Below, piece by piece: positions 12,898 through 34,965 of a DNA stretch of 64,000 nt (positions within the stretch are counted from its first letter, which is position 1; every line of letters starts with the position of its first letter). The notes under the pieces are model-generated. The model was not told the origin of the DNA. It was given only the letters and a program-made list of their open reading frames with translations, and searched no databases. The position numbers were made by a program, and so were the translations under genes. Origin of the DNA: a bacterium (GTDB lineage: Bacteria > Patescibacteriota > Minisyncoccia > Phycocordibacterales > UBA2100). Location: contig JAUSGQ010000020.1 in NCBI GenBank assembly GCA_030674455.1, positions 13,461 through 77,460 of the forward strand, in the 5' to 3' direction.

Positions 12898-14454
12898 ATG
12901 GGAAAGAAACAGGCGATTGCTTCCGGTTTCGCGCGGCTCTCCGGTGCGCAACCCGCACTGCCGCGAGCGCATGTCGTTTCCGTTGAGACGGACATCACAA
13001 AAGGGCTTCACGCGTTTACGATAGTCGGACTCCCAGATAAATCGGTGGAGGAGGCGAAAGACAGGATCGCATCCGCGATAAAAAATAGCGGTTTCGAATC
13101 GCCCAAGAGGAGTAATAAAAAGATAGTGTTGTCGCTCGCCCCTGCAACTCTTCGAAAAGAGGGAGGGGCTTTTGATTTGCCGATGGCGCTCTGTTTTTTA
13201 CTCGCATCGGAACAGATGAAGTTCAATCCAGCAGGTAAAATGTTCGCCGGGGAGTTGGCACTCGACGGCGAAGTGCGCGCGATACCGTGTGCGCTTTCAA
13301 TCGCGCTCTCCGCACGCGACAAGGGTTTCAAAGAATTCTTTCTTCCAGAAGAAAATTTGGAGGAGGCGTCTCTGGTTTCCGGAATCTCTCTATTCGGGGT
13401 GAGTACGCTTAAAGAACTGGTTGAACACTTGAGCGGTATTAAGCTCATCGCGTCATTTGTAAAAAAAGAAAATTCGCAGGTCAGAAAAGACATCGAAATA
13501 GACGGTCCTATCTTTGACGATATACGCGAGCAAAAAAGTGCGAAGCGCGGATTGGAAATCGCGGTCGCCGGCAGACACAACATCGCGCTCTATGGTCCGC
13601 CGGGAACGGGAAAAACGATGCTTGCCCGCGCGGCCACAGCGCTTCTGCCGGAACTTTCGCCGGAAGAAATCATTGAGGTGACGATGATACATTCGCTCGC
13701 AGGAACGTCCGGCGGGCGGGCGATAGTGAGCGCGCCGTTTCGAAGCCCGCATCACACTTCATCATACTCATCGCTCATCGGTGGCGGTTCATCAAGCCCT
13801 CGAGCGGGAGAAGTCACTCTTGCGCACAGAGGAGTTTTGTTCCTCGACGAATTTCCGGAGTTCCATCGCGACGTCGTGCAGGCGCTTCGAGAGCCGCTGG
13901 AAGACAAAGTAGTTTCAATTTCGCGGGCTAAAGGCTCCGCCATATTTCCCGCGAACTTCATGCTTATCGCCGCACTGAACCCATGCCCGTGCGGATTTTG
14001 GGGGACTGCGCGCTGTGAGTGTATGCCGCACATCGTAGAAAAATACCGCCGAAAAATTTCCGGCCCTGTCGCCGACAGAATTGATATGTGGGTCTCTGTC
14101 GGCGACATCGCGCCCGAAGCAATGACGGCGCGAAAAAGAAAAGAGGCCGGGGAAACCGAAGCCGTACGTTCACGAATACTAAAAGCCCGCACGCGGCAAA
14201 GAGAGCGTTTCATCAATGCGAAGGGACTTTCCACGAATGCCGACATGAAAGCGAAACAAATTGATACGCTCGCTAAACTTTCACCCAAAGCGGAAGAAAC
14301 CTTGGTCGGCGCGGCCCGTTCTCTAAAACTTTCTCCCCGCGGTTATCATCGCACCATCAAGCTCGCCCGCACCGTCGCCGACTTAGCCGAAAGTGAAACG
14401 ATTGAGCCCTCTCACATGCTTGAAGCTCTTCAATATCGAGCCCGGGAATTGTAA
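12898..14454 (+). CDS. YifB/ComM-family Mg-chelatase-like AAA+ ATPase
   Basis: N-terminal Lon-protease-like domain, Walker A LYGPPGTGKTML and Walker B VLFLDEFPEF. C-terminal Mg-chelatase subunit ChlI-like region with Cys cluster NPCPCGFWGTARCEC. Confidence 0.85.
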   Translation: MGKKQAIASGFARLSGAQPALPRAHVVSVETDITKGLHAFTIVGLPDKSVEEAKDRIASAIKNSGFESPKRSNKKIVLSLAPATLRKEGGAFDLPMALCFLLASEQMKFNPAGKMFAGELALDGEVRAIPCALSIALSARDKGFKEFFLPEENLEEASLVSGISLFGVSTLKELVEHLSGIKLIASFVKKENSQVRKDIEIDGPIFDDIREQKSAKRGLEIAVAGRHNIALYGPPGTGKTMLARAATALLPELSPEEIIEVTMIHSLAGTSGGRAIVSAPFRSPHHTSSYSSLIGGGSSSPRAGEVTLAHRGVLFLDEFPEFHRDVVQALREPLEDKVVSISRAKGSAIFPANFMLIAALNPCPCGFWGTARCECMPHIVEKYRRKISGPVADRIDMWVSVGDIAPEAMTARKRKEAGETEAVRSRILKARTRQRERFINAKGLSTNADMKAKQIDTLAKLSPKAEETLVGAARSLKLSPRGYHRTIKLARTVADLAESETIEPSHMLEALQYRAREL

Positions 14455-14463
14455 GTTATAATC

Positions 14464-14491
14464 ATTCTAGTATTTTGCAAAATACTAGAAT
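14464..14491. promoter_or_regulatory. Perfect 28-bp palindrome ATTCTAGTATTTTGCAAAATACTAGAAT (candidate operator), copy 1
   Basis: Located 17 bp upstream of the ArsR-like gene. Identical core at 14776-14803 and 20873-20898. Confidence 0.5.
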
Positions 14492-14507
14492 GGTTTAGAA
14501 TTCTCAT

Positions 14508-14804
14508 ATGCCTGACTTAAACATCAACCCAACAACTAATAATTACCGACGCCTCGAAAGAGTCGTAAAGGGTTTCGCTAATCATCGGCGGTTAGAGATC
14601 TTACATTTGTTACACAAGAGTCCGGAACTTTCAGTTGAGGATATTTCGGAGATATTGGACATCGGGTATGAAAACGCATCCGACCATCTTCGCAAAATGG
14701 CAATCGCTGGTTTAATTCTGAAGCGCAACGAGGGCAACAATGTTAGACACAAACTCACGACGCGCGCAGAATCTATTCTAGTATTTTGCAAAACACTAGA
14801 ATAG
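14508..14804 (+). CDS. ArsR/SmtB-like winged-HTH transcriptional regulator
   Basis: HRRLEILHLLHKSPELSVEDISEILDIGYENASDHLRKMAIAGLI matches the ArsR-type HTH pattern. Confidence 0.6.
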   Translation: MPDLNINPTTNNYRRLERVVKGFANHRRLEILHLLHKSPELSVEDISEILDIGYENASDHLRKMAIAGLILKRNEGNNVRHKLTTRAESILVFCKTLE

Positions 14805-14810
14805 ATTCTC
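14771..14810. promoter_or_regulatory. 40-bp palindrome (1 mismatch) with the same TTCTAGTATTTTGCAAAA core, copy 2
   Basis: GAATCTATTCTAGTATTTTGCAAAACACTAGAATAGATTC overlaps the stop codon of the ArsR-like gene. May act as a terminator hairpin and/or operator. Confidence 0.45.
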
Positions 14811-15029
14811 CTCGGAATTCTCTCGCAATTGCTGCAGCTAGATGCGGACAAAAAGAGTTCTCGCGTTAGTCGCGAATTTTCTAACTTTTTCGCGCCGGTC
14901 AAAGATTTCGTTTCACATCGCTTTAGGTTTTTTCTTCCTCAATCTCCCTGGCCAGCATATAGGACATGGTCCGCTTCCCTGATATCGATGTCCCCGGCTG
15001 CATGTTTTCCAATTCTTTTGTTCCATTTT

Positions 15030-15533
15030 TTAGCGAAGAGAATCTGAAAGCTTGTCGAAGGATTGATTCCATCCCTGCGCCGTCAAATCACCCATCATTC
15101 CCTCGGGAAGTCCTTTGTGCCGCAGTGTCATAAGCGTGCGGCCACCCTCCACGTCTTCGAATATTACCGAGAATTCAAGTTCCATGGGAAAACCCTCCAT
15201 GCCGTAATGAGTAGACGAAACAACATTTCCTTTTTCATCGGCGAAACTGTCGGTCATCACGAGTTTTTTCGCGGGGACGACTTCTTTATATGTGCCGGTA
15301 CTCCAGAAATCCTGAACAGGCGCCTCGGGCGAGGATTTGCCCCGCATGCAAAACAAATATTTACCGCCCTCCCGTAAATCAATCGAGATTGAGGGGGCTG
15401 TAAAATCTTTCGGGCCCCACCATTTTTTCACCTGTTCCGGTTCTGTCCATGCGCGCCATATTTTTTCGCTCGGCGCGTCAAAAAAGCGGGTAATGGTAAG
15501 CAATCCACCCTCAATTGTTGTGGCTTCTTTCAT
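15030..15533 (-). CDS. SRPBCC-superfamily protein (AHSA1/activator-of-Hsp90-ATPase-like)
   Basis: ITRFFDAPSEKIWRAWTEPEQVKKWWGP matches the AHSA1/SRPBCC N-terminal signature. Confidence 0.65.
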   Translation of the reverse strand: MKEATTIEGGLLTITRFFDAPSEKIWRAWTEPEQVKKWWGPKDFTAPSISIDLREGGKYLFCMRGKSSPEAPVQDFWSTGTYKEVVPAKKLVMTDSFADEKGNVVSSTHYGMEGFPMELEFSVIFEDVEGGRTLMTLRHKGLPEGMMGDLTAQGWNQSFDKLSDSLR

Positions 15534-15677
15534 GTGCGTACATTCTGCCCAACCGAATCTAGAATTTCCATGAAGAGCATGCGAAATACACTCTCACAGA
15601 ATCTTCATCGGGGTACAGGTACTCTTGAAAACTGGTCTGCAAATATTATTTAATCGACCAAAATTTTATCGACATAT

Positions 15678-18338
15678 ATGCAATACAATATGCAACGATT
15701 CAGTATCGCCGGTATTTGTATATCGGCTCTTATTATTAGCGCAGTGGTTGCTTACGCGGGACTGCAAATAGTTTCCGCTCAAGCGACGGCAACTCTAACA
15801 CTGCATAAAGTAGTAATAAATAACAACGGCGGCGCAGCAACGACCACGGATTGGACGCTTCAGGCAAGCGGGACGACTCCACTTTCGGGAGTAGATGGCA
15901 GTGCGGCAGTAACAAACGCGGCGGTTGAACCCGACACGTACAGTCTTGGCGAATTCGGGCCATCCGGATATACCTCTGCGGGTTGGGTCTGTACTGGAAC
16001 GGGAAATCAAACCGATAGCAACACGATAGTCCTCGGGGCAAATCAGAATGCGACATGTACCATAACGAATGATGATGTTGCGACCGTAAGAGTTCATACG
16101 CTCAAGTACCTCGACGGTTTGGAAGCGACGTCCGCCTCCGCGAACAACTACCAGTTTCCTGTGAGGGGAACATGGAAAGCTTCGAACATCAACGGCGGAG
16201 CTACGACAACCGTTGACTTCCTACTCGGTGTTAATGCGGGCGGTGCTCCTGAACAATATGGCGCGCTCACTGAGCCCCTGGCTTCACCAGCATACTTCTC
16301 CTTATTCGAAATTCCCAACACTGTAGATGGCACGAGCCAGGTCTTGCCGATAGGTGCGCAGTGCGAGGCGGGGAAATACCGGCTGCTTGGATATTCGTCG
16401 AGCGTCGCTGGTTTCGGCGATGCTGCAATTCAGCCCATTAGCACTTCAACGCCCGAATTTATCAACCTCGCGACGGATAGATATCTCATTGTATGGAACG
16501 AGAACTGCGATACGCCGAAACTCACCGTCAACAAGGTTGTGATAAATGACGACGGCGGAGAGGCGACTGTACCCAACTTCACCCTCTTCATTGACAACTC
16601 GACGACAACTTCCGGAGTTGCTTCATCAACTACGGTCGGAGCGCACGTCGTATCTGAAGCGCCAGATTCCGAATACACAGGCACAATCAGCGGCGATTGC
16701 GATTCGAACGGAAATGTGACCCTGGCTGCTGGAGAGAATAAGACATGTACGATTACCAACAATGACATAGCGGCAACAACAACGCCGCCAACCCTGACAG
16801 TAAACAAAGTTGTCATTAATGACGACGGCGGCACGGCGACGACCACAGACTTCACGCTGTTCATTGATAACGCAACGACCACTTCCGGAGTTGCTTCCAC
16901 AACTTCAGTCGGTGCGCACGTTGTATCGGAAGGGGCGCACTCAGGATACGCAGCGACGATTGGCGGTGATTGCGACGCCAGTGGCAACATCACATTGGCA
17001 TCCGGAGAGAACAAGACCTGTACGATTACCAACAACGATATAGCAGCGACAACGACGCCGCCAACTCTGACCGTAAACAAGGTTGTGATAAATAACGATG
17101 GCGGAACGGCAACAACGAGCGACTTTACGCTGTTCATTGACAACGCGACGACCACTTCCGGAACAACTGCCACGACGACAGTGGGCGCGCATGTGGTATC
17201 GGAAGGTGCTCACGCTGGCTATGCGGAAACGATTAGCGGCGATTGCGATTCGAACGGAAATGTGACTCTGGCTGCTGGAGAGAATAAGACATGTACGATT
17301 ACCAACAATGACATAGCGGCAACAACGACGCTGAAGGTTCACATTCTTAAGTACCTCGACGGCGCAATGGCAACGGCTAGCTCATCAAACAATTACCAAT
17401 TCCCGATGACATCGACGTGGCAGACGGCAAATCTTAATGGAGGCGCCACTACTACTGGCAGCTTTGTCCTGGGCAACTTCCACGGCGGAGCCGCGGATCA
17501 ATACGGAGCGGACACATCAGCGATGGAGGCACCGGCATACTACACAACTTCGGAAATAACCGACAATACAAGCTTGGTGTTGCCGCCGGAGGCGCAGTGC
17601 GAGACTGGCAAGTACCGACTGGTTGGATATTCGACTAGTACTATCAGTTTTGCCGACGCTGCGTTACAGCCCTCAAGCACGAGTACGCCGGAGTTCATTG
17701 GATTGAATTCGGATCGCTTCGTTATCGTGCGCGATGTCACATGCACAACGCCGACACCTCCTCCTTCGAATGTGTGCAGCCTCTCGCAAGCACCAAGCGG
17801 ATACACTCTGCAAAATGGAACGCCTGGACATGATAACGTAACGCTCGCTCCCAATACCATGTTCGTGGGAATGGGCGGCAACGATAGAGTAACTGCAGGC
17901 GACGGCAACTACATCATCTGTACCGGCACTGGCAACGATAGGATACGAACGGGGAACGGCGACGTTATCATCGACGCGGGCGACGGTAATAATTCCGTCG
18001 TGACCGGCGACGGCACGGGAGATATCACGACTGGTTCAAAGAATGACAAGATTACGACCGGGACGGGTACTCACACCATCAATGCTGGCGATGGAAACAA
18101 CAACATCCGAACCGGCGACGGCGACCAGATGGTGACGACCGACACCGGCAACGACAAGATAACGACGGGCAACGGCAACGACACAGTATCGGCCGGCAAT
18201 GGTAACAACAATATCAAGACCAATGGCGGCACCGATACCATCACGGCCGGAACAGGGAATGATAAGGTCGACGGCGGGTCTGGAACCGATAGCTGCAATG
18301 CCGATGGCGGCTTCAACTCGGTAACCAACTGTCCGTAA
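15678..18338 (+). CDS. Large secreted repeat protein with tandem DUF11-like domains and RTX-like C-terminal Gly/Asp repeats
   Basis: N-terminal signal or TM segment. Three ~81-aa tandem repeats (TLTVNKVVINDDGGTATTTDFTLFIDNATTTSG...NKTCTITNNDIAATTTPP), flanked by two copies of a ~140-aa domain (VH.LKYLDG...GKYRL.GYS). C-terminal GNDxIxTGxGxDxI nonapeptide-like repeats. Confidence 0.8.
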   Translation: MQYNMQRFSIAGICISALIISAVVAYAGLQIVSAQATATLTLHKVVINNNGGAATTTDWTLQASGTTPLSGVDGSAAVTNAAVEPDTYSLGEFGPSGYTSAGWVCTGTGNQTDSNTIVLGANQNATCTITNDDVATVRVHTLKYLDGLEATSASANNYQFPVRGTWKASNINGGATTTVDFLLGVNAGGAPEQYGALTEPLASPAYFSLFEIPNTVDGTSQVLPIGAQCEAGKYRLLGYSSSVAGFGDAAIQPISTSTPEFINLATDRYLIVWNENCDTPKLTVNKVVINDDGGEATVPNFTLFIDNSTTTSGVASSTTVGAHVVSEAPDSEYTGTISGDCDSNGNVTLAAGENKTCTITNNDIAATTTPPTLTVNKVVINDDGGTATTTDFTLFIDNATTTSGVASTTSVGAHVVSEGAHSGYAATIGGDCDASGNITLASGENKTCTITNNDIAATTTPPTLTVNKVVINNDGGTATTSDFTLFIDNATTTSGTTATTTVGAHVVSEGAHAGYAETISGDCDSNGNVTLAAGENKTCTITNNDIAATTTLKVHILKYLDGAMATASSSNNYQFPMTSTWQTANLNGGATTTGSFVLGNFHGGAADQYGADTSAMEAPAYYTTSEITDNTSLVLPPEAQCETGKYRLVGYSTSTISFADAALQPSSTSTPEFIGLNSDRFVIVRDVTCTTPTPPPSNVCSLSQAPSGYTLQNGTPGHDNVTLAPNTMFVGMGGNDRVTAGDGNYIICTGTGNDRIRTGNGDVIIDAGDGNNSVVTGDGTGDITTGSKNDKITTGTGTHTINAGDGNNNIRTGDGDQMVTTDTGNDKITTGNGNDTVSAGNGNNNIKTNGGTDTITAGTGNDKVDGGSGTDSCNADGGFNSVTNCP
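16500..17340 (+). repeat. Three tandem ~243-bp coding repeats inside the large secreted protein gene
   Basis: ACCGTCAACAAGGTTGTGATAAATGACGACGGCGG... recurs at ~16518, ~16797 and ~17063 with >85% identity. Confidence 0.8.
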
Positions 18339-18363
18339 CAAGCTTCGGCGCGAAATCATCACT

Positions 18364-18392
18364 AAAAGTCCCCGTTCGCGGGGACTTTTAGT
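18364..18392 (+). terminator. Rho-independent terminator
   Basis: AAAAGTCCCCG-ttcg-CGGGGACTTTTAG is a perfect GC-rich stem plus T-run 26 nt after the stop of the large repeat protein. Confidence 0.75.
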
Positions 18393-18469
18393 GTTCTGCT
18401 ACCCATCTCATTTTTTCTTCATTCGATCCGAATACAATCGGAGTATTAGTAATAATTATTCAAACTTAT

Positions 18470-18808
18470 ATGAAAAAATTTCTTGTAATTTATAAAGCGC
18501 CAAGTGAGGAGTTCCAAAAACTAATGGCCAATTCAACTCCAGAAGAACAGAAGAAAGGCATGGAAGATTGGGGAAAGTGGATGAAGGAACATAGTGCGGA
18601 ACTCGTAGACGGAGGAGCGCCCGTCGGAAAAACCAAGCAAGTGACAATGGACAGCGTTACGGATATTAAAAACGACATCGGTGGATACTCGATTGTTCAG
18701 GCCGAATCTCATGATGATGCCGCGAAAATCTTCACCGACAGCCCGCATTTTTCCGTCCCGCGCTCATCAATTGAAGTGATGGAAATCATGCCCATGCTTA
18801 CGAATTAA
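18470..18808 (+). CDS. Hypothetical small protein (YciI/Dabb-like fold guess)
   Basis: 112-aa ORF. No definitive motif. Followed by a strong hairpin. Confidence 0.4.
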   Translation: MKKFLVIYKAPSEEFQKLMANSTPEEQKKGMEDWGKWMKEHSAELVDGGAPVGKTKQVTMDSVTDIKNDIGGYSIVQAESHDDAAKIFTDSPHFSVPRSSIEVMEIMPMLTN

Positions 18809-18817
18809 TGTCCTTTT

Positions 18818-18878
18818 CATTCTAACGTTTTGCTTGCCCTTCCATAGCTTTAGCGAAGGAGGGCAAAACGTTAGAATG
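18818..18878 (+). terminator. Long hairpin (16-bp perfect stem CATTCTAACGTTTTGC / GCAAAACGTTAGAATG)
   Basis: Starts 10 nt after the stop of 18470-18808. No T-run, so it may be a regulatory or structural hairpin. Confidence 0.4.
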
Positions 18879-18927
18879 AGAAGAGCTGCAATGCTGTTCC
18901 GCAGGTTTCCGCTTTGAATATGCACCT

Positions 18928-19012
18928 CAATCCAAATCCGGGGTTTTGGAGCCGAGGCCCCACATGAAATCAAAGTAGGCGCTTAGGGTGTTGGAAAATT
19001 CTTTGCTCTCTA
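18928..19012 (-). pseudogene. Duplicated 3'-terminal fragment of the TrmB-like gene (direct repeat / att-like)
   Basis: The 85-bp segment AATCCAAATCCGGGGTTTTGGAGCCGAGGCCCCACATGAAATC.AA.TAGGCGCTTAGGGTGTTGGAAAATTCTTTGCTCTC also occurs at 19766-19851. The minus-strand translation FIIESKEFSNTLSAYFDFMWGLGSKTPDLD* equals the C-terminus of 19764-20528. Confidence 0.7.
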
Positions 19013-19243
19013 TGATGAAGAAAGTGCCAGAAGATCGTGGTCATTGAAACTTCATTATTTTTTGTTATGCTTAAGTTATGACAAAGAAAAATATTACATT
19101 CATTGCAACGCAGTTCAGAAATAAGCCGGTGAATATCAGCTTCTACACCAAAGATGGCGAGCGCGTGAATTTTACTGCAACAGAAAAAACGCCTGTGAGG
19201 ACTCGCGTGCATTTCCGCGCTCGCAATCGTAAACCTTAAGAAA

Positions 19244-19696
19244 ATGGCTCAACCGTTCGACTATAAGTTCGGGCTCACCGAGATTATTCCCTCCAAGCAA
19301 TTAGACGACCGCGAAGGTCAAAAAGTGACCACCTTCAAGACACTTGTGGAGAAGACGATAACATCGGAGGTACTCAAATCCCTCGCTTTTCCTTCTAAAA
19401 GAGAGGTCTTTGTGTCGATAATGCAATTTTTTGCAAGCAAGAAGGAATATGAAAGCCGAGATATTGATAATATGTCAAAAACAGTTATGGACTGTCTCAA
19501 GGGTAAGCTTTACATTGACGACGCGCAGGTACGGACACTTTTGATAAGCAAAAAGATTTCTCCAAAGGTTCCGACGAACTTCGTGTTCGTTGGAATGAGG
19601 GAAATAAAGGGAGAAACAGATGTTGGCATCGTACAGAATAATTTGCTGGAACAGGCCGTTACCCTTTATCAGGCATCTGCGAAAGCGGTAGCATGA
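19244..19696 (+). CDS. rusA: RusA-like Holliday-junction resolvase (phage-type)
   Basis: SRDIDNMSKTVMDCLKGKLYIDDAQV matches the RusA catalytic signature (D-x-D-N...K...DD-x-Q-V). Confidence 0.65.
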   Translation: MAQPFDYKFGLTEIIPSKQLDDREGQKVTTFKTLVEKTITSEVLKSLAFPSKREVFVSIMQFFASKKEYESRDIDNMSKTVMDCLKGKLYIDDAQVRTLLISKKISPKVPTNFVFVGMREIKGETDVGIVQNNLLEQAVTLYQASAKAVA

Positions 19697-19763
19697 AAAG
19701 GGTCGGGCAGTATAAGATGATAGCAATCACTCTTTCCGCAAATAAAAGTGGTTTCCCGAGAGC

Positions 19764-20528
19764 CTAATCCAAATCCGGGGTTTTGGAGCCGAGGCCCCAC
19801 ATGAAATCGAAATAGGCGCTTAGGGTGTTGGAAAATTCTTTGCTCTCAATAATAAATCCGAAATTTTCTTCTTTGGTGGAAACCATGGCGACTTTGTGGT
19901 CGTAAATCATGATTATGGCCGCATAGAAAACGGACGGGGGGAGATAGCGCACGTAACGTTTTAGCTTCGGGTCTTCCATCCCGCGCTTATTCGTATACAA
20001 ATCTCCGTGCTTGGGGTGAAGATTGCGCGTAATAATGCCGCGCGCGATTCTTTTTTTAATAAACTCGTTGATGAACGCGTCTCCGACGACTTCGTTGTGC
20101 TGGCGCGCCCGCACAATTTGCTTTATTTCTTTTGATTGGCAGTCAAGCGCGTCGTCATAGATTTTCTTCACACCCTCGCGCCCCTCAAAAAACGCGATTT
20201 TCGGTCGCACGTGGTGTGTGATGAACAAATTTGAAAGCCCCGGCAGGACTTCTGCCACTCGTTTCTTCTTTTCTTCAAGCATCGAGAGGATAAGAGCGGG
20301 GTCTTGCGCCTCGTAGAGTTTCTGTTTTCCTTTGTACCTGCTTTTGACAAGGTCCATCGCCTCCAACTCTTCGACGATTCCGTAGACAGTCGTTCTTTTA
20401 ATTTGAGCGGCAGTTGCAATTTGCGGGATTTTAGACGGACCAGCTTCCAAGCAGGCGATATAGACTTGCGCCTGCTTGTGCGTGAGCCCTGCGTCCATAA
20501 GTTCCTTTTTGTACATATTTTTCGACAA
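19764..20528 (-). CDS. TrmB-like HTH transcriptional regulator
   Basis: N-terminal LTHKQAQVYIACLEAGPSKIPQIATAAQIKRTTVYGIVEELEAMDLV is a TrmB-type wHTH. The C-terminal 30 aa are duplicated at 18928-19012. Confidence 0.55.
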   Translation of the reverse strand: MSKNMYKKELMDAGLTHKQAQVYIACLEAGPSKIPQIATAAQIKRTTVYGIVEELEAMDLVKSRYKGKQKLYEAQDPALILSMLEEKKKRVAEVLPGLSNLFITHHVRPKIAFFEGREGVKKIYDDALDCQSKEIKQIVRARQHNEVVGDAFINEFIKKRIARGIITRNLHPKHGDLYTNKRGMEDPKLKRYVRYLPPSVFYAAIIMIYDHKVAMVSTKEENFGFIIESKEFSNTLSAYFDFMWGLGSKTPDLD

Positions 20529-20868
20529 CTTTCTATGCTCGATAATGCCTTATATTAAGCCATTTCTTGAAACTAGCTAGATAATAATACATGAATTATG
20601 ACGGATTTCAAAGAGTTGGGACATACTTTACACACGAAGACAGGATGTTTGTCTTCGTACGGCCCGGGTCGCACCTAGCGGTCCATTTGCGAGTCATTCG
20701 ACTCACAAAAAAGTTCTTTCCGGGAAGTTATTCATAACTTTCCATTTGCGAATCAAACGATTTGCAAAAGCTTTTCGGCAAATTTTCTCTTCCATGAAAA
20801 TTTCCACCACATTTAAAGACTTGAGCACACCCGTTCAAGTCTTTTCCTTATCTGACGCTGATAGAAAC

Positions 20869-20904
20869 CTATTCTAGTATTTTGCAAAATACTAGAATAG
20901 ATTT
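20869..20904. promoter_or_regulatory. Palindrome CTATTCTAGTATTTTGCAAAATACTAGAATAG, copy 3
   Basis: 32-bp perfect palindrome ~70 bp upstream of the DinJ-YafQ module. Identical core to the copies at 14464 and 14771. Confidence 0.5.
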
Positions 20905-20968: not shown

Positions 20969-21256
20969 ATGAAAACCGTCATCAGCGTAAAGGTAGACAA
21001 AGACGTGCGCGACAGAGCGCGTAAGGTGGCACGGCAGATGGGCGTGCCTCTTTCAATGGTGGTCAACTCGGGGCTCCGGCAGTTCGCCCAAGAAGAGCGT
21101 ATCGTCTTTCAAACAGAAAAAGTCTACCGAATGACCAAAAAATTTGAGAAGAAGCTCGAGAAAATCGAGGCCGATATAAAGGCTGGACGAAATCTCTCGC
21201 CCGAATTTAAAACTGCTGCAGAAATGGACAGGTATCTTGATGGCCTGAAAAAATGA
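20969..21256 (+). CDS. dinJ: DinJ/RelB-family antitoxin
   Basis: KVDKDVRDRARKVARQMGVPLSMVVNSGLRQFAQEERIVF parallels the DinJ RHH N-terminus. Overlaps the toxin gene by 4 nt. Confidence 0.8.
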   Translation: MKTVISVKVDKDVRDRARKVARQMGVPLSMVVNSGLRQFAQEERIVFQTEKVYRMTKKFEKKLEKIEADIKAGRNLSPEFKTAAEMDRYLDGLKK

Positions 21257-21513
21257 TCATTCATACACATCGGTCATTTGAGAAAAAATACCTGAAATTA
21301 CAGGCGAAACTTCAAGATAAGTTCCGGGAACGTCGTGACTTGTTCATTGATTACCAGTTTCATCCATTGCTTGACAACCACGCTTTACACGGCGAGTGGC
21401 AGGGTTATCGAAGCATTAACGTTACCGGCGACTTTCGAGCAGTATTCAAACAAGAAAACAATATCGTAACTTTTGTTGATATTGATACGCACCACAAACT
21501 CTACGGCACATAG
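21253..21513 (+). CDS. yafQ: YafQ/RelE-family mRNA interferase toxin
   Basis: HPLLDNHALHGEWQGYRSINVTGDFRAVFKQENNIVTFVDIDTHHKLYG parallels YafQ (HPLQGSWKGYRDAHVEPDWILIY...RTGTHAALFG). Confidence 0.8.
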   Translation: MIIHTHRSFEKKYLKLQAKLQDKFRERRDLFIDYQFHPLLDNHALHGEWQGYRSINVTGDFRAVFKQENNIVTFVDIDTHHKLYGT

Positions 21514-29860: not shown

Positions 29861-30703
29861 GTGGAAAACAAACACGCGAACGATGCGGGGTTTATTTTGA
29901 CGTGGCGAGATCGTCTGGGAATTTCATTCTCGCCGATGCTCATCGCCGCCGTTCTTTCCGTCGCGGTTTTATTAATTGCAATCGGCTGGCAGGCCAATAA
30001 AACTATCGTAACGGCAAATCCCGGAGCTTTTACCGGTTCGGGGAAGGTATCTTCCGCCCAAAATCAAACCGGGAGCGGAACAATTACAGAAATGAACTAT
30101 ATCGCACTCGCAGACGAAGCAGGTCCGAATGATTTCTCGAACACCGAAAGCGACGTTTTTGGACAACTTTTCGGAACATATATTAGCCTCAAAAATTCGG
30201 GAACGTACACAGAGGAGAAAGGGGCTGACCTGGCCAATCGCATAGCCGAGGCAACGGTGGCGCAGGTTGAATACACGCCTATTGCGAGGAGCGAAATAAA
30301 AACCGATTCCGACGTCTCTCGCGAACGAGTTCTTGCATATAGAAATGACTTGCAAACCGCTCTTGCGCCTTTTTTAACGAAGTCCGAATCGGAACTCGGA
30401 ATTTTTAACAGCTATGTACAAACGGGAGATAAGCACAACCTTGAGCTTTTGGCAGATGCTGCGGGGAAATATCGCAAAACTGTTTCTCTGCTCTCCGCAG
30501 TGACCGTACCGCAAGACGCGATTGATTATCACCTGGGAATCACGAACTCTCTTTTGCAGTTCGCAGTAACTCTTGATGCGATGATAAAAAATGCGGATGA
30601 CCCGATGGCTACTCTTGCCCTCTTGCGCACATACAATTCCGCTGAAGATAGCGTGTACACATCGTTCAGCTCCCTTGCTTCCTACGAAAAGCGAAAAATA
30701 TGA
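29861..30703 (+). CDS. Hypothetical membrane-anchored protein (T4SS-like cluster)
   Basis: N-terminal TM LIAAVLSVAVLLIAIGW. 4-nt overlap with the next gene suggests an operon. Confidence 0.45.
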   Translation: MENKHANDAGFILTWRDRLGISFSPMLIAAVLSVAVLLIAIGWQANKTIVTANPGAFTGSGKVSSAQNQTGSGTITEMNYIALADEAGPNDFSNTESDVFGQLFGTYISLKNSGTYTEEKGADLANRIAEATVAQVEYTPIARSEIKTDSDVSRERVLAYRNDLQTALAPFLTKSESELGIFNSYVQTGDKHNLELLADAAGKYRKTVSLLSAVTVPQDAIDYHLGITNSLLQFAVTLDAMIKNADDPMATLALLRTYNSAEDSVYTSFSSLASYEKRKI

Positions 30704-32442
30704 CTCCCATTAGAGACCGCGGAAGTTTAGTCTGTGTCCATTCAACGGATGTTTTTCATTGGTCTATTGCTTACGGGCAATTGCTTTTGAGTCGGAAGCG
30801 CAAACTTCCTACTTCTAACGGGACAGGTAACAAATATTCTTTCATCGCCCTGTGGTGCGCGCTGGCAATATTCGCAGCGCCCGCAGGCGTTTACGCGCAA
30901 CTTACAGCAAACGATGACCCCATGGAAAATTGCAGTATATATGGCGCCCAATCAATGAGCGTGGGCTCTATCGCAACGCTCGGAGGCGGAGTTGTGCCGG
31001 TGAGCGACGCGGCCGTTACTCTGAATACCGGAATGCTCGTCTACAAAGAATGCATCGTTCGCAAAATAATAGACGCAAAAAAGAAAGCCGCGATAGCGCA
31101 ACTTATAAGCGATTCTTCAAAAACATATCTGAAAGGACGAGAGGTCTGCACAGTGGACATTGACGGCAATAGAACATGCGAAACGACCAGTCCGTATTTT
31201 CCCGAAGATCTGGCGGCCGACCAGCGGCTGTGGGAGAGCAATGTTGTCAACCAAAACATAAGCGGCGGGCTATCAAATTCTCTAAATCCTGCGTATCAGA
31301 ACGACCTGCGGCTTGCCCTCAATCGCTCCTATCAGCAACAAATCCAGAATCCGGGCGCATCGCTCGCCTGTTCGTATACGGGAGACCTCGTCGCTCTTAA
31401 CAACGGTGCATACGACGGTCCGCAGTCATTGTTTGCGGTCGGCGACCCCAACTGCAATCCTCTCTTCAATTATTACAATTACCAAAGTTCCGTCATGAGC
31501 ATCGCGGCCGCCGACACAGCAAACAGGATGACCCGCCTTGGCTGGAACAATGGCACGTATGACGTCGAGTACAGGGATCCCGCGACCGGACGAGTGCGCG
31601 TCGTTACGCCCGGATTCATAGTAGCGGGAACTTTCCAACAGCAACTCGGCTCGAATTTCCGACAGCTTGAAAATGCCAACGACATAGGACAATTGATAAA
31701 CGTATTCTTCGCCGGAATAGGGAACCTTGCTATTTCGGCCACAGCTCAAGGGCTTAACGCGCTTATCAATTCCTCCGTCGGGACATCTTTCGTTGACAGG
31801 ATGGTGCAAGACTTCGGTGCGGAACAATCAGCCGCGCAGACCGGCGCAGCTCTACAGAATCTCCAGGCGGCGGTCTATAACGAGAGTCAATATCTCGCGG
31901 CAAAAAATGCGACGAAGGACGTGTTGATGCAGGCCGCGACAAGTTTGCGCGATGCGGAAAACCTATGTTGGAGCCGGATAGTTCCTCTGGTAACGACGTA
32001 TGCGCAACAAAACAGCATCGCTCAAATACAGATAGCGACAACGTCAGAGCAATGGGCGCAAAAAGTCATAGAAAACAACAACAATAGTCTCGTTAGGCTG
32101 GCGGCTTCTCTAAACACCGAAGCTACTGCCGCCTCCACAGCGCTTGACCGTCTCAATGAAATCAGTGCCGGAGTAACTAACAACACTATTAGTGGAACCG
32201 ACGGCTACAATCAACTCAACGCCATCGTTTCAACCCTCCCTACACAGGCCGACGTGCAGGGCGCACAAGAGCAAACGCAGACCATGCAAACAAATCTTGG
32301 GACACTTGTTCAGGGAACCCTGACAGCCTGGCAAGGAAATGCAGACCCTACTGTCGGCTGGTGCAATGTCAATACTCCCGCCGTGATTAAAGGATGGGCA
32401 GACAAATGGAGCGGGAGCAGCAGCATCTATGACCACCGATAA
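30700..32442 (+). CDS. Hypothetical secreted protein (T4SS-like cluster)
   Basis: Signal peptide FIALWCALAIFAAPAGVYAQ followed by 580 aa of Asn/Gln/Thr-rich sequence. Operonic with the VirB6-like gene. Confidence 0.45.
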   Translation: MTPIRDRGSLVCVHSTDVFHWSIAYGQLLLSRKRKLPTSNGTGNKYSFIALWCALAIFAAPAGVYAQLTANDDPMENCSIYGAQSMSVGSIATLGGGVVPVSDAAVTLNTGMLVYKECIVRKIIDAKKKAAIAQLISDSSKTYLKGREVCTVDIDGNRTCETTSPYFPEDLAADQRLWESNVVNQNISGGLSNSLNPAYQNDLRLALNRSYQQQIQNPGASLACSYTGDLVALNNGAYDGPQSLFAVGDPNCNPLFNYYNYQSSVMSIAAADTANRMTRLGWNNGTYDVEYRDPATGRVRVVTPGFIVAGTFQQQLGSNFRQLENANDIGQLINVFFAGIGNLAISATAQGLNALINSSVGTSFVDRMVQDFGAEQSAAQTGAALQNLQAAVYNESQYLAAKNATKDVLMQAATSLRDAENLCWSRIVPLVTTYAQQNSIAQIQIATTSEQWAQKVIENNNNSLVRLAASLNTEATAASTALDRLNEISAGVTNNTISGTDGYNQLNAIVSTLPTQADVQGAQEQTQTMQTNLGTLVQGTLTAWQGNADPTVGWCNVNTPAVIKGWADKWSGSSSIYDHR

Positions 32443-32448
32443 ATCGTT

Positions 32449-34965
32449 ATGAAAAAAATCCTCACATTAGGTTTTTTGACAATAGCACTGCTCATTACTG
32501 CTGCACCTGAGTTGGCTACAGCACAATCCGCACAACCCGAGTGGTGGGAATTAGCGAGGAACACTGCATGGTGTGGGACTTTAGGACTTCTTGATCCATC
32601 CTGCTGGATTAAATTAATCGCCGTCGTAGGCGGCACCATCTTGGTTAATTTAGCAGCATTGCTTTTGGGACTGGCGGATATGCTGTTCGGATGGACGTTT
32701 GATAACACGGTACTTTTATTCAAAACAGAGATATTTCAAAAGGCGGAAGAGGGAATAAACGCCGGTTGGACGGCACTTCGTGACATCGCGAATATCGTCA
32801 TAATCGGAATGCTCACCTTTACTGCAATCTCGACAATCCTCGGGATACAGGAATATGCCGCAAAGAAATTTCTCGCTCGCGTGCTTATAATAGCGGTGCT
32901 CATAAACTTCAGCTTACTTTTTACAAAACTTATTATTGACGCTTCCAACTTTACCGCAGGGCAGTTCTACGCGGCGGCGGCCGGAACATCCTTAGGCGGA
33001 GCGATGGATGATGCAACAAAGCGCAGCAGCGGCCATAAGGCCGACATCGCGGCACCCGAGACATCCTTTCGAAAGACCGGTATTTCCGGCGCATTCATGC
33101 GATTTTCAAGAGCGACGAGCATTAGCGGCACTGGGGGAAGCTTATTTAGGACTGCTTATAGCGATGCTGGTGGTGCACTCATGGCACTCGGGCAGGCCGT
33201 TCTTGCGGTGATACTACTGGGCGGAGCCGCGTTAGTTCTTTTCTATGGCAGTTATCTCCTCATATCCCGCGCTTTGCTGTTTATTTTTCTTATGATTACC
33301 GCGGCTGGCGCATTCGCGACCTACCTCATCCCCGGAATGAGCGACAGTAGGTATGGATGGAAGGGCTGGTGGTCGTCGCTTTTGCACAATGCCGCTCTTG
33401 CCCCCATTTTAATGGTACTGATATGGGTAACAATCCAGGTGTCCTCAAAAATGTCGGACATGAGAGAGGGTGCCGGGGGAACCCTCGGGACATTGGCCGA
33501 CCCCAAGCTCTTGTCCTCGGCTGATGGAGGGGTTTCATCGATAAGTGAGCTATTCTCCTTTATCGTAATTATAGGATTGCTCTACGCTTCTTTCCTTCTT
33601 GCGAGCAAATGGGCGGGGAAGGTGGGCGGTCTCAGCATGGCGTCAATGGCATTAACCGTTCCATTCAACCTCGGCTCGCAAGCGGTAGGATTCGCTCTCA
33701 AAAAAGGATTGGGCGGCGGAGCCGCATTAATTGAAAAGAAGATTGGCGCGAAGCAAGGAAAACTAAGGGATAGACTGGCTCGTTACCCCGACATGTCGCC
33801 TGCCAGAAAGAGCACAATCCAGGCTGGCATCGATAAGTATGCGTGGCAAAAGGGACTTGCCGGACGGTTTGCAAAACAGAATTACAATCCTATTGCACAA
33901 CTTGCAAAGACAAAGTTGGGCCAAACGGTCGCAAAGCAAGCCGGATTTACCAGCCCGATATCTGCCGGCGACGCGAAGTCTAATTTTGCAGATGATGCGA
34001 AAAAGGTAACTGAAGCCGCTGTAGCGCGCGCAGAAGCTGCGTACCAGTTCTCTACGAGCGATCAGAGAAAAATGCGTGAAAAGGAAGAGGCAAGACGAAG
34101 AAAAGAATGGCAGGAACACAAACAATTGCTCACCGAACAGGCAGTACTGGCAGCAAGAACTGCCGAAGCATCGGAACAACAGACGCAAAGAGAGAAAGCC
34201 AGATTGGAGCTTGAAAAACAACTGGTTGTGAGAGAAGCGACAGACAAAAAGACAAATGAAAATCTTGCGCCTAAAAAAGCCGTCGCGGAAGATAATCTAA
34301 AGACTGTAACGAAAGATGCGACGGCGCAAAAGGCAACCGTGGCTCTCACCTCGGACACATTAATCAAGAAACTCCAGGACGAACTAAGCCATGCCCAGAC
34401 GCCTGACCAAACAAAGGAAATAACCGGTAAGATAAAGAGCGCGGTGGCGGAAAAACAAGCGGCAATTGATGAGCAAGATGTGAGGATAAGAGACGCACAG
34501 AAAGCCGTAAAAGATATTGAGAATAGAATCGGTGAAATAGACAGGGATGCGAGAAAAGAAACACAAGAACTTGATGAATCTCTTTCACACTATGAAGAAA
34601 ATGCGGTTCGTGATGCGAGAAGGAGCAAGGGGCTCAACGAAAGGCTTAGAAAGGAAGATAACAAGGAAGAAACTGGACAACTTGATATTGATATTTCAAG
34701 AGCGGCGGAGAGAGTAGTGCAACGGTCAATTGATGCCGTTAAAAAACCGGGCGCGGAAGCGGCGGAAAGATATGCAGCCAATAGGATATCTGCTCTCGGA
34801 TTTGGGGCCTATGTCGGAGGAAAGGCGAAGACAATGTATGAAGACAAACAGGGTAAGACTAGGATTAAGAAAGACCTCGAAACGTATCTTGAAGATATGT
34901 TGAAACCAGAAAGTGCATCCACGGTGGCGCCGACTCCGCCGGCAACCCCAGGGACAACCGCTTGA
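32449..34965 (+). CDS. VirB6/TrbL-like polytopic membrane protein with long C-terminal coiled-coil
   Basis: N-terminal signal, then about 6 TM helices over ~400 aa, as in TrbL/VirB6. The C-terminal 400 aa are charged coiled-coil (EKARLELEKQLV...). Lies upstream of the PrgI-like and VirB4-like genes. Confidence 0.45.
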   Translation: MKKILTLGFLTIALLITAAPELATAQSAQPEWWELARNTAWCGTLGLLDPSCWIKLIAVVGGTILVNLAALLLGLADMLFGWTFDNTVLLFKTEIFQKAEEGINAGWTALRDIANIVIIGMLTFTAISTILGIQEYAAKKFLARVLIIAVLINFSLLFTKLIIDASNFTAGQFYAAAAGTSLGGAMDDATKRSSGHKADIAAPETSFRKTGISGAFMRFSRATSISGTGGSLFRTAYSDAGGALMALGQAVLAVILLGGAALVLFYGSYLLISRALLFIFLMITAAGAFATYLIPGMSDSRYGWKGWWSSLLHNAALAPILMVLIWVTIQVSSKMSDMREGAGGTLGTLADPKLLSSADGGVSSISELFSFIVIIGLLYASFLLASKWAGKVGGLSMASMALTVPFNLGSQAVGFALKKGLGGGAALIEKKIGAKQGKLRDRLARYPDMSPARKSTIQAGIDKYAWQKGLAGRFAKQNYNPIAQLAKTKLGQTVAKQAGFTSPISAGDAKSNFADDAKKVTEAAVARAEAAYQFSTSDQRKMREKEEARRRKEWQEHKQLLTEQAVLAARTAEASEQQTQREKARLELEKQLVVREATDKKTNENLAPKKAVAEDNLKTVTKDATAQKATVALTSDTLIKKLQDELSHAQTPDQTKEITGKIKSAVAEKQAAIDEQDVRIRDAQKAVKDIENRIGEIDRDARKETQELDESLSHYEENAVRDARRSKGLNERLRKEDNKEETGQLDIDISRAAERVVQRSIDAVKKPGAEAAERYAANRISALGFGAYVGGKAKTMYEDKQGKTRIKKDLETYLEDMLKPESASTVAPTPPATPGTTA

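What the first reader, a model, noticed from the sequence alone, without database searches (positions are those of the whole stretch)
18928..19851. RusA-carrying insertion flanked by an 85-bp direct repeat that duplicates the 3' end of a TrmB-like regulator gene
The segment 19766-19851 is the 3' end of gene 19764-20528 (minus strand). It is repeated at 18928-19012, where it encodes the same C-terminal 30 aa followed by a stop. Between the repeats lies a ~750-bp segment with a RusA-like Holliday-junction resolvase gene (19244-19696) and a possible 53-aa basic ORF (19078-19239). This is the signature of site-specific integration into the 3' end of a gene with reconstitution of the target (attL/attR). 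It is probably a decayed prophage or integrative-element remnant.
Basis: seen in the sequence. Interest (0 to 1): 0.65.

Follow-up and report, generated by a model that had tools for sequence, protein, structure and literature searches.

The report
Integrase-less RusA cassette in gene end
A small two-gene DNA cassette (a RusA-type DNA-junction-cutting enzyme plus a tiny partner protein) was recombined into the tail of a regulator gene, bringing its own replacement tail; related bacteria stack several such cassettes at the same spot, and none carries an enzyme for its own insertion.

Summary
A 91-nt direct repeat (18929-19019 / 19766-19856, 5 mismatches) duplicates the last 30 codons of a TrmB-family gene. 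The upstream copy is a dead fragment. 19244-19696 is RusA family (Pfam E 4e-10).

All five differences between the copies are synonymous. The two copies therefore diverged as working gene ends in different lineages, so this is imported DNA and not a local duplication.

The genome is Kaiserbacteria-like (Patescibacteria). Relatives show empty sites, one cassette, or two stacked cassettes (AbiE toxin-antitoxin, then RusA), each bounded by a copy of the gene end.

The 53-aa ORF is a real gene. It precedes RusA in 22 of 26 Patescibacteria genome loci. This module is also bracketed by diverged direct repeats at other targets: an RmuC-like gene end (three copies), plus intergenic and promoter regions.

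I found no integrase in about 45 window ORFs or in any cassette. There are no phage genes and no IMG/VR relatives.

"Integration with reconstitution of the gene end" is supported. "Decayed prophage" is not. It is best read as a stackable cassette without its own integrase at a gene-end hot spot, inserted by functions supplied in trans. Whether that is a site-specific recombinase or host homologous recombination is unresolved.

The parts
18813..18883 (.). Inverted repeat (21-nt arms, 29-nt loop) between the YCII-family gene (18470-18808) and the displaced gene end. It is terminator-like and belongs to a dispersed palindrome family.
   Evidence: Pair I1. The 17-mer TCATTCTAACGTTTTGC occurs only in these two arms within the window. 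The same arms follow the intact TrmB gene in the empty-site locus L035. A 91% identical copy sits in another context in L068, so orthology is only suggestive.
18927..19019 (-). Displaced, non-functional copy ('U') of the last 30 codons plus stop (TGA) of the TrmB-family gene. This is the resident gene end that the insertion pushed downstream.
   Evidence: It has no start codon and a stop lies 38 codons upstream in frame. Its differences from the live copy are all synonymous.
19020..19077 (+). Cassette promoter region: -35 TTGAAA (19044-19049), 16-nt spacer, extended -10 TG-TATGCT (ending at 19071), 6 nt before the ATG.
   Evidence: Promoter scan. The same TTGAAA...TGnTATnnT arrangement is conserved upstream of the small ORF in L005 and L008 and in L010 and L042.
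19078..19239 (+). 53-aa basic protein, the conserved partner gene of this RusA. It is predicted to be a single long beta-hairpin. Function unknown.
   Evidence: tblastn finds it immediately upstream of RusA in 22 of 26 genome loci, plus L005-L008 and L072-L076. There are 58 cluster representatives in the 1.84-billion-protein library. AlphaFold2 with 37 sequences gives pLDDT 90.3 with strands 3-23 and 29-49. There is no Pfam or PHROG family and no meaningful PDB fold match.
19244..19696 (+). RusA-family Holliday-junction resolvase gene (150 aa).
   Evidence: Pfam PF05866, E 4.2e-10. PHROG 140, E 7.8e-11. The motif RD(I/V)DN...IDD is invariant in 17 homologs and aligns to the D70/D72/D91 region of E. 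coli RusA 1Q8R, although weakly (E 0.08).
19697..19763 (.). Spacer between the RusA stop and the TrmB stop. It is a shortened remnant of a roughly 135-nt structured element that follows the TrmB stop in relatives.
   Evidence: Alignment A4: the first bases after the stop (GCTCTCGGG) are homologous to L042 and L068, and the rest is deleted in the window. The structure in relatives has compensatory changes.
19764..19856 (-). Live copy ('G') of the last 30 codons plus stop (TAG) of the TrmB-family gene. It is at least partly supplied by the incoming cassette.
   Evidence: The post-stop sequence is homologous to the arm that accompanies the RusA cassette in L042 and L068.
19764..20516 (-). TrmB-family winged-helix regulator gene (250 aa from the ATG at 20516; a TTG at 20528 is also open). 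This is the target gene of the insertion.
   Evidence: Pfam PF01978. A 100% identical 250-aa protein, P0071, is in NCBI. There are 99 homologs, mostly Kaiserbacteria.

Best explanation
**What it is.** The 837-bp segment is a horizontally acquired cassette with no integrase of its own. It holds its own promoter, a 53-aa beta-hairpin protein and a RusA-family resolvase. It was joined to the chromosome by a crossover inside the last ~90 nt of a TrmB-family regulator gene.

**How the structure arose.** The incoming DNA carried its own copy of the gene's last 30 codons, which now completes the gene (19764-19856). The resident end was pushed 837 bp downstream, where it survives as a dead fragment (18927-19019).

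**Wider pattern.** The TrmB 3' end is a hot spot. In related Kaiserbacteria-like genomes it is empty, or carries one cassette, or carries two stacked cassettes, each bounded by a copy of the gene end with the newest next to the gene. The small-ORF + RusA module is bracketed by comparable diverged repeats at other targets in other Patescibacteria.

**Shown.**
- The insertion, the reconstituted gene end and the foreign origin of one copy.
- Stacking, empty sites, and the absence of a recombinase in cis.

**Inferred.** Recombination functions act in trans. I give about 45% to a site-specific recombinase encoded elsewhere (a CIME-like or integron-like situation). I give about 35% to host homologous recombination using the gene-end copy as a portable homology arm, with the first junction made by an illegitimate event.

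**RusA itself.** It is most likely cargo, a second resolvase beside the host RuvC, and not the insertion enzyme.
For: 1. The repeat and the identical 30-aa translations are real.

2. Differences between copies are biased towards synonymous changes:
- window: 5 synonymous, 0 non-synonymous, P = 2.6e-4
- L013: 17 and 8, P = 6e-7
- L042, two displaced copies compared with each other: 8 and 2, P = 1e-4
- L006: 9 and 7, P = 0.0016

So the copies diverged as functional gene ends before they were brought together.

3. Empty sites exist in relatives:
- L035: sigma factor gene convergent with TrmB
- L037-L040 and L078: ComM convergent with TrmB, 83-185 bp apart
- L045: TrmB 95% aa identical, no RusA in 13.8 kb

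4. Stacking is seen in L042 and L057: TrmB, copy 1, AbiEii/AbiEi, copy 2, ~135-nt hairpin, RusA, small ORF, copy 3. L005, L006, L007 and L009 show the same inner part.

5. Each cassette keeps its own flanks in different backgrounds. The AbiE arm AAATTAACCGAGG follows the TrmB stop in L036, L070 and L042. The RusA-type arm follows it in the window, L042, L006, L068 and L060.

6. The same architecture occurs at another gene. In L013 the small ORF + RusA lie convergent to an RmuC-like gene, with three copies of that gene's end: full, 38 codons and 14 codons. Bracketing repeats also occur in L024 (133 nt) and L019 (54 + 30 nt).

7. No recombinase was found. Pfam was run on about 45 window ORFs and on cassette and neighbour ORFs. 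tblastn with XerD, lambda Int and gamma-delta resolvase against all loci and the window hit only L018, 5 kb from its RusA.

8. There is no viral link.

9. For homologous recombination:
- TrmB genes are mosaics. L036 and L042 are 100% identical over nt 1-332 and 73-80% in the middle. L036 and L070 are identical from about nt 557 to the stop.
- Codons 187-249 show raised synonymous identity in the cassette-bearing clade (0.756 against about 0.60, permutation P = 5e-5).

10. For a site-specific step: the unrelated AbiE and RusA cassettes share exactly the same sharp junction (before TCCAAC, codon 228). Neither has any homology to TrmB upstream of it.

11. RuvC (52846-53343) and RuvB (57366-58385) are present, so RusA is an extra resolvase.
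Against: - No circular intermediate and no recombinase partner was seen, so the mechanism of joining is inferred only.
- The window's junction (codon 220) differs from the junction of the RusA cassette in L042, L005 and L065 (codon 228). The two RmuC cassettes in L013 also have different junctions (38 and 14 codons). That does not fit one fixed crossover site.
- Conversely, the identical junction of two unrelated cassettes does not fit purely random illegitimate joins.
- The ~135-nt hairpin that accompanies RusA cassettes also follows intact TrmB in L060 without RusA and without any displaced copy. Part of the 'cassette arm' may simply be ordinary TrmB-downstream DNA of a donor lineage.
- About 15 of some 20 RusA lineages show no flanking repeats.
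- The flank similarities I used to call U 'native' involve dispersed intergenic repeats and are therefore weak.
- The loci are metagenome assemblies.
Confidence: 0.72

Rival explanations
1. Classical reading: this is the remnant of a prophage or integrative element that inserted by its own integrase at an att site in the TrmB 3' end, then lost everything except RusA and a small ORF.
For: Direct repeats containing the target gene's 3' end, a reconstituted gene, empty sites in relatives and tandem accretion are the textbook signature (CIME definition in PMC5704250; stacked islands with partial tRNA repeats in 10.1101/2020.12.28.424599). RusA genes are common in phages (PHROG hits). AbiE and RusA cassettes share one sharp junction.
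Against: - No integrase, integrase pseudogene or phage gene lies in any of about 12 occupied sites or in the 64-kb window.
- The cassettes are clean units of exactly two genes with the same limits in different genomes. They do not look like ragged deletion products.
- The small ORF + RusA is a module conserved across Patescibacteria, with its own promoter, in many non-phage contexts.
- This RusA clade and the repeat core have no match in IMG/VR.
Confidence: 0.15
2. Local duplication: the 91 nt were duplicated in place when the module was inserted (a long target-site duplication, or a tandem duplication followed by deletion), and the copies then diverged.
For: The two window copies are 95% identical and share a GAG codon (E223) that close relatives have as GAA. 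Bracketing repeats occur at non-coding targets too (L024, L019).
Against: - A dead copy should collect random changes, but 5 of 5 (window), 17 of 25 (L013) and 8 of 10 (two dead copies in L042) are synonymous.
- In L024 the repeat is 85% identical over 89 nt and then 100% over 46 nt, which is not uniform decay.
- Cassette-linked gene ends travel with the cassette across TrmB backgrounds.
- No transposase or terminal inverted repeats are present.
Confidence: 0.04
3. Self-mobilising resolvase element: the small ORF + RusA module is itself a minimal mobile element. It carries a captured piece of its target, pairs with the chromosomal copy, and uses its own Holliday-junction resolvase (with the basic beta-hairpin protein) to complete integration and excision.
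For: The module is found at many different places. It is bracketed by diverged repeats of the local target in at least 4 independent lineages with 4 different targets. It always carries a junction resolvase, a conserved partner and its own promoter. The host already has RuvC.
Against: - The AbiE cassette (L042) and the 75-aa cassette (L013) have the same gene-end architecture without RusA, so RusA in cis is not needed.
- RusA is not known to initiate recombination (general knowledge of the family).
- Most RusA lineages show no repeats.
Confidence: 0.07
4. Assembly artefact: strain variants were collapsed into one contig, creating a false repeat.
For: All data are metagenome assemblies of populations with many co-existing strains (for example ten contigs from sample Ga0209542).
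Against: The same architecture recurs in independent assemblies and samples from ENA, JGI and NCBI, made with different assemblers. The copies differ from each other, and both junctions are covered by unique sequence.
Confidence: 0.02

Closest known systems
CIMEs (cis-mobilizable elements) and tandem accretion at the 3' end of a gene, for example ICESt1/ICESt3-related elements at fda in Streptococcus thermophilus (as reviewed in PMC5704250)
   Same: Flanked by direct repeats that contain the 3' end of a protein-coding target gene. The gene is reconstituted. There is no integrase inside. Elements are stacked, with the incoming one next to the gene.
   Different: No related integrase-bearing element was found at this site in any locus. 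The cassettes are minimal, clean two-gene units rather than decayed ICEs or IMEs. The repeats are long (64-133 nt) and diverged like alleles rather than being a short identical core. Junction positions are not uniform.
Island stacking at tRNA or tmRNA genes (tycheposons in Prochlorococcus, 10.1101/2020.12.28.424599; ssrA islands in Dehalococcoides, PMC3146451, seen as title and abstract only)
   Same: Successive integrations at one site push older elements further from the target and leave partial target copies as markers. The cargo is accessory or defence-type genes.
   Different: Those systems have identifiable tyrosine or serine recombinases and RNA-gene targets. Here the targets are protein-gene ends (TrmB-like, RmuC-like) and no recombinase was seen.
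Orphan C-terminal modules downstream of cdiA, rhs and other polymorphic-toxin genes
   Same: Arrays of displaced 3' gene fragments plus small cargo genes lie downstream of a full-length gene. They are generated when incoming DNA recombines in a conserved stretch and displaces the former end.
   Different: In those systems the displaced ends encode different toxin domains. Here every copy encodes the same conserved C-terminus, and the cargo is unrelated and convergently transcribed.
Integron gene cassettes
   Same: Small cassettes of one or two genes with no recombinase are stacked at one site, with the newest proximal. A trans-acting recombinase would be the implied engine.
   Different: No intI/attI is present and no attC with RYYYAAC/GTTRRRY cores. 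The cassettes have their own promoter. The repeat is a coding gene end.
RusA of lambdoid prophages (E. coli rusA, phage 82)
   Same: Pfam and PHROG RusA family. The acidic motif aligns with D70/D72/D91.
   Different: It is a deep Patescibacteria-specific clade, always paired with a 53-aa beta-hairpin protein. It lies in chromosomal, non-phage contexts beside a host RuvABC set.

Membership tests
RusA (PF05866) Holliday-junction resolvase | Profile match above the curated threshold | tested here: met
   Pfam 40.7 bits against a cut-off of 22.8, E 4.2e-10. PHROG 140, E 7.8e-11.
RusA (PF05866) Holliday-junction resolvase | Catalytic acidic residues (E. coli D70, D72, D91) | tested here: met
   R72-D73-x-D75-N76 and D92-D93 are invariant in 17 homologs. 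They align with RRRDLDN...LDDAQV of 1Q8R, though the PDB hit is weak (E 0.08).
RusA (PF05866) Holliday-junction resolvase | Dimeric junction-specific cleavage | not testable with these tools
   Needs biochemistry.
Prophage or integrative element inserted by its own integrase | Integrase (tyrosine or serine recombinase) or its remnant within or next to the element | tested here: not met
   Pfam was run on the two insert ORFs, the neighbours and about 45 window ORFs. tblastn with XerD, lambda Int and gamma-delta resolvase found nothing in the window or in any TrmB locus.
Prophage or integrative element inserted by its own integrase | Direct repeats at both ends that include the target's 3' end, and an empty site in relatives | tested here: met
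   L035, L037-L040; L078.
Prophage or integrative element inserted by its own integrase | Phage structural or replication genes, or relatives in viral collections | tested here: not met
   No IMG/VR relative of this RusA clade or of the repeat core. The small ORF has no PHROG hit.
CIME (att-flanked element without integrase) | attL- and attR-like repeats kept while integration genes are absent; tandem accretion with other elements | tested here: met
   Window. L042 and L057 have three copies and two cassettes.
CIME (att-flanked element without integrase) | Derivation from, or mobilisation by, a related integrase-bearing element using the same site with a fixed crossover core | tested here: inconclusive
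   No such element was found in roughly 25 TrmB loci. The junction is identical for AbiE and RusA cassettes in L042-type arrays but 24 nt different in the window.
Integron cassette | attC imperfect palindrome with RYYYAAC/GTTRRRY cores, an adjacent intI/attI, and promoterless cassettes | tested here: not met
   No intI. The cassette has its own promoter. The structured ~135-nt element lacks these cores and is largely deleted in the window.
Transposon or insertion sequence | Transposase, terminal inverted repeats, and a short identical target duplication | tested here: not met
   No transposase domains. The listed inverted repeats do not lie at the insert ends. The repeats are 91 nt and diverged in an allele-like way.
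TrmB-family transcription regulator (the target gene) | N-terminal TrmB winged-helix domain | tested here: met
   PF01978, E 1.9e-12, residues 11-77. The C-terminal ~170 aa have no Pfam family.

The most novel reading that the evidence does not exclude
The 53-aa beta-hairpin protein plus RusA is a minimal autonomous mobile element of Patescibacteria. It would carry a captured, allele-like piece of its target and use its own Holliday-junction resolvase to integrate and excise by homeologous recombination. That would be a 'resolvase-only' class of mobile element. The gene-end cassette stacks, including cassettes without RusA, would then be built with RusA supplied in trans.
Probability: 0.08. 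Interest if true: 0.85.

Novelty: new variant of a known kind. Interest (0 to 1): 0.57.

Why it matters
Patescibacteria (CPR) have tiny genomes, and how they gain and shuffle accessory genes is poorly understood.

This locus shows a compact way of adding genes without damaging the target. Each incoming cassette brings a spare copy of the last 14-38 codons of a conserved gene. Cassettes can be stacked: AbiE toxin-antitoxin and RusA here, and other defence-type cargo at the same hot spot in relatives. None encodes its own recombinase.

If a trans-acting recombinase is responsible, this is an integron-like or CIME-like capture system in CPR. If host homologous recombination is responsible, the gene-end copy is a portable homology arm that lets cassettes spread among diverged strains.

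The work also defines a conserved, uncharacterised partner protein of a CPR-wide RusA clade. That clade exists beside RuvABC.

Tried and rejected
- **Exact-protein look-ups** of the window's RusA and of the TrmB ORF read from TTG 20528 found nothing. The TrmB product from the ATG start is on record in NCBI as P0071.
- **tRNA or tmRNA as target or cargo:** none in the window.
- **Rfam family for the ~135-nt element after the TrmB stop:** only sub-threshold miRNA noise.
- **Viral origin:** no IMG/VR relatives of the RusA clade or of the repeat core.
- **Hidden extension of the displaced copies:** the apparent 43-aa tblastn alignment of L005's second copy was not backed by shuffle tests on the arm sequences, so I dropped the idea that the fragments were once longer and decayed.
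- **DNA-level constraint on the gene end across the whole TrmB family:** synonymous identity is not clearly raised there family-wide. It is raised only in the cassette-bearing clade.
- **Using the downstream hairpin and flanks as proof that U is 'native':** weakened, because these are dispersed intergenic repeats.
- **Fold of the small protein:** The 37-sequence model is confident, but Foldseek against the PDB gave only trivial long-hairpin matches to pore-forming toxins.
- **PDB sequence search** with the RusA profile at the default threshold found nothing.
- **Literature searches** for RusA in Patescibacteria were dominated by an author name and gave nothing specific. One search failed on syntax.
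- **Two further TrmB look-ups** (L077, L078) added only one more empty site.
Full report
**1.

- The repeat finder reports a 91-nt direct repeat at 18929-19019 and 19766-19856, 95% identical and 837 nt apart. The pairwise alignment shows homology ending sharply on both sides.
- The downstream copy is the 3' end of a minus-strand gene (19764-20516/20528) with a TrmB winged-helix domain, PF01978, E 1.9e-12.
- Read on the minus strand, both copies encode the same 30 residues, FIIESKEFSNTLSAYFDFMWGLGSKTPDLD, followed by a stop.
- The upstream copy lies in a 38-codon stop-to-stop frame with no start codon. It is a fragment, not a paralog.
- Between the copies lie a 53-aa ORF (19078-19239) and a 150-aa ORF (19244-19696). 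The second passes the Pfam RusA model: 40.7 bits against a cut-off of 22.8. It also matches PHROG RusA families.
- Its invariant RD(I/V)DN...IDD motif aligns with the catalytic D70/D72/D91 region of E. coli RusA. The PDB match itself is weak.

**2. Organism and setting**

- Homologs of both proteins are almost all from Kaiserbacteria and other Parcubacteria/Patescibacteria MAGs. A 100% identical TrmB-family protein is in NCBI on a 98.7-kb MAG contig (P0071).
- The window is core chromosome. It holds dnaA, dnaN, polA, PNPase, ComM, adenylosuccinate synthase, UvrD, RuvC, YebC and RuvB.
- RusA is therefore a second junction resolvase beside RuvC (52846-53343).

**3. The copies are alleles, not a decaying duplicate**

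- All five differences between the window copies are synonymous. The expected synonymous fraction is 0.19, P = 2.6e-4.
- The same bias appears elsewhere:
  - L013: 17 synonymous and 8 non-synonymous, P = 6e-7.
  - L006: 9 and 7, P = 0.0016.
  - L042, two displaced copies compared with each other: 8 and 2, P = 1e-4.
- A dead copy made in place would collect random changes. These copies therefore diverged while each was the working end of the gene in some lineage, and were later brought together.
- This rejects a local target-site or tandem duplication. It shows that one copy came in with foreign DNA.

**4. Empty, single and stacked sites**

Empty sites:
- L035: a sigma factor gene is convergent with TrmB, 155 bp apart.
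- L037-L040 and L078: ComM is convergent with TrmB, 83-185 bp apart.
- L045: TrmB is 95% aa identical to the window's, but other cargo (an ImmA/IrrE peptidase and DUF4411) lies next to the gene end and there is no RusA.

Stacked sites:
- A scan of JGI metagenomes for the repeat core found L042 and L057 with three copies.
- Their order is: intact TrmB, copy 1, AbiEii/AbiEi, copy 2, a ~135-nt structured element, RusA, the small ORF with its promoter, copy 3, then unrelated flank.
- The RusA-91% loci L005, L006, L007 and L009 show the inner part of the same array. Their 'second fragment' is copy 2, and their AbiE genes lead towards a TrmB gene beyond the contig end.
- Each cassette keeps its own flanks in different TrmB backgrounds:
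  - The AbiE arm AAATTAACCGAGG follows the TrmB stop in L036, L070 and L042.
  - The RusA-type arm GCTC(T/G)C... follows the stop in the window, L042, L006 and L068.
- The site is therefore a hot spot at which cassettes accumulate. Each brings a replacement gene end, and the most recent lies next to the gene.
- Other cargo at the same place includes a RelA/SpoT-like protein with a restriction-modification pair (L060) and an HATPase_c_3 protein (L068). This is a defence and toxin-antitoxin type island.

**5. The RusA module is not a phage leftover**

- The 53-aa ORF lies immediately upstream of RusA in 22 of 26 Patescibacteria species-representative loci, at 34-88% identity. It is also there in L005-L008 and L072-L076.
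- The promoter is conserved too: TTGAAA, 16 nt, TG-TATGCT.
- The module sits in many different chromosomal contexts. Examples are upstream of rpoB in L008, near EF-Tu in L072, and next to a sigma factor gene in L005.
- There are no relatives in IMG/VR.
- The small protein has 58 cluster representatives in a 1.84-billion-protein library. It has no Pfam or PHROG family.
- It is predicted with confidence (pLDDT 90, 37 sequences) to be one long beta-hairpin. It has no informative structural neighbour.

**6. The same architecture at other targets**

- Self-comparison of all RusA loci found bracketing direct repeats in other lineages.
- L013 (RusA 68% identical): the module is convergent to an RmuC-like gene, and three copies of that gene's end are present (full, 38 codons, 14 codons). 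A second cassette, a 75-aa ORF, lies between copies 2 and 3.
- L024: 133-nt repeats flank the module, 85% identical over 89 nt and then 100% over 46 nt.
- L019: repeats containing a promoter flank the module.
- About 15 other lineages show nothing detectable.

**7. Mechanism**

No recombinase was found:
- Pfam on about 45 window ORFs and on cassette and neighbour ORFs found none.
- tblastn with XerD, lambda Int and gamma-delta resolvase against all loci and the window hit only one unrelated Xer-like gene, in L018.

Two trans-acting routes remain.

For a site-specific enzyme:
- The unrelated AbiE and RusA cassettes share exactly the same sharp junction, immediately before TCCAAC at codon 228.
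- Neither has detectable TrmB homology beyond that junction.

For homologous recombination:
- The TrmB genes are obvious mosaics. L036 and L042 are 100% identical over the first 332 nt and 73-80% in the middle. L036 and L070 are identical from about nt 557 to the stop.
- In the cassette-bearing clade, synonymous identity rises to 0.756 in codons 187-249 against about 0.60 elsewhere, permutation P = 5e-5.
- Once a cassette is flanked by gene-end copies, an ordinary double crossover can move it into any related genome and reproduce the same junction. One crossover would fall in the TrmB body and the other in the distal copy.

Against a single fixed site:
- The window's junction is 24 nt further 5' (codon 220) than in L042, L005 and L065.
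- The two RmuC cassettes differ from each other (38 and 14 codons).

A further complication: the ~135-nt structured element follows intact TrmB in L060 with no RusA and no displaced copy. The 'arm' may therefore be ordinary donor-lineage DNA.

I therefore commit to the general statement with confidence 0.72: a horizontally acquired cassette joined by a crossover in the gene end, with the enzymes supplied in trans. Within it I give about 45% to a trans site-specific recombinase and about 35% to homologous recombination, with the first junction made illegitimately.

**8. Comparison with known systems**

- The architecture matches CIMEs and tandem accretion at gene 3' ends (PMC5704250). It also matches island stacking with partial target copies (10.1101/2020.12.28.424599; PMC3146451, listed).
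- It differs in four ways: no integrase-bearing relative was found, the cassettes are clean and minimal, the repeats are long and allele-like, and the junctions are not uniform.
- It resembles the orphan-module arrays of polymorphic toxin genes in how old ends are displaced, but here every end is the same conserved C-terminus.
- It is not an integron cassette: no attC cores, no intI, and it has its own promoter. It is not a transposon.

**9. Verdict**

The core inference, integration into a gene end with reconstitution, is supported.
- 'Decayed prophage' is not supported.
- The finding is a new variant of a known kind. Its most interesting open point is how integrase-less cassettes, including a Patescibacteria-wide RusA + small-protein module, are inserted.
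- The most novel reading not excluded is that the RusA module drives its own homeologous integration. I give it about 8%.

Noticed in passing
window 19078-19239: The 53-aa ORF is a genuine, conserved gene family with no Pfam or PHROG family. It sits directly upstream of this RusA clade across Patescibacteria. It has a periodic (K)xVxFxAxK pattern and is predicted to be a single 50-residue beta-hairpin. One database member (P0170, 85 aa) carries an internal duplication of it.
   Followed up: yes
window 14460-14497, 14765-14808, 20865-20904 (and the variant at 18813-18883): A family of ~40-nt near-perfect palindromes (consensus about TATTCTAGTATTTTGCAAAATACTAGAATA) sits between genes, and the same family recurs in related loci (L042, L043, L045, L060). 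L042 also holds a second dispersed ~55-nt repeat (TTCTCTCTGCAATGAGCGGGGAGGGAACTGGTTTTGTTTTTGC). They look REP-like or terminator-like. Any role at cassette borders is unknown.
   Followed up: partly
L060 1904-2045; L068 4125-4266 (-); L006 4520-4660 (-); L042 3337-3465; remnant at window 19697-19763: A ~135-nt structured element lies directly after the TrmB stop codon. It is conserved with compensatory base changes (7 pairs), has no Rfam family, and occurs with three different downstream cargos. It is mostly deleted in the window.
   Followed up: partly
window 14455-19763: The 5.3 kb between ComM (12898-14454) and the TrmB 3' end is a flexible island holding an ArsR-type HTH, an AHSA1/SRPBCC protein, an 886-aa SpaA-fold/RTX-repeat surface protein, a YCII protein and the RusA cassette. 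In L037-L040 and L078 ComM and TrmB are only 83-185 bp apart. In L001-L004 TrmB instead lies between dksA/traR and ComM in the other orientation.
   Followed up: partly
TrmB genes of L036, L042, L070, L035, L045, L060 and window 19767-20513: There is strong mosaicism between co-occurring strains: blocks of 100% identity next to blocks of 73-80%. This indicates frequent homologous recombination in these Kaiserbacteria-like populations.
   Followed up: yes
window 20969-21513: A RelB-like antitoxin and YafQ-like toxin pair lies just upstream of the TrmB gene. A homologous pair lies in L068 in a different neighbourhood.
   Followed up: no
window 29861-43603: A block of mostly family-less ORFs includes a TraG/VirB4-like P-loop ATPase (37855-39762) and a weak, sub-threshold match to a T4SS pilin family (42689-43603). 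It may be a type IV secretion or conjugation-like cluster. No integrase was seen.
   Followed up: no
window 15678-18338: The 886-aa predicted surface protein has internal ~270-nt tandem domain repeats (SpaA_2 prealbumin-like fold, four matched stretches) and a C-terminal run of 27-nt RTX-type nonapeptide repeats.
   Followed up: no
L013 5086-7623: An RmuC-like gene carries a stack of two cassettes (RusA module, then a 75-aa ORF of unknown family) marked by 38- and 14-codon copies of its own 3' end. Ribosomal protein L21 lies just beyond.
   Followed up: partly
L009 (MFEL01000015.1): A 5.2-kb contig binned as 'Candidatus Doudnabacteria' carries a RusA cassette 92% identical to the window's, with the same TrmB-end fragments. 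This is either mis-binning or recent transfer between lineages.
   Followed up: no
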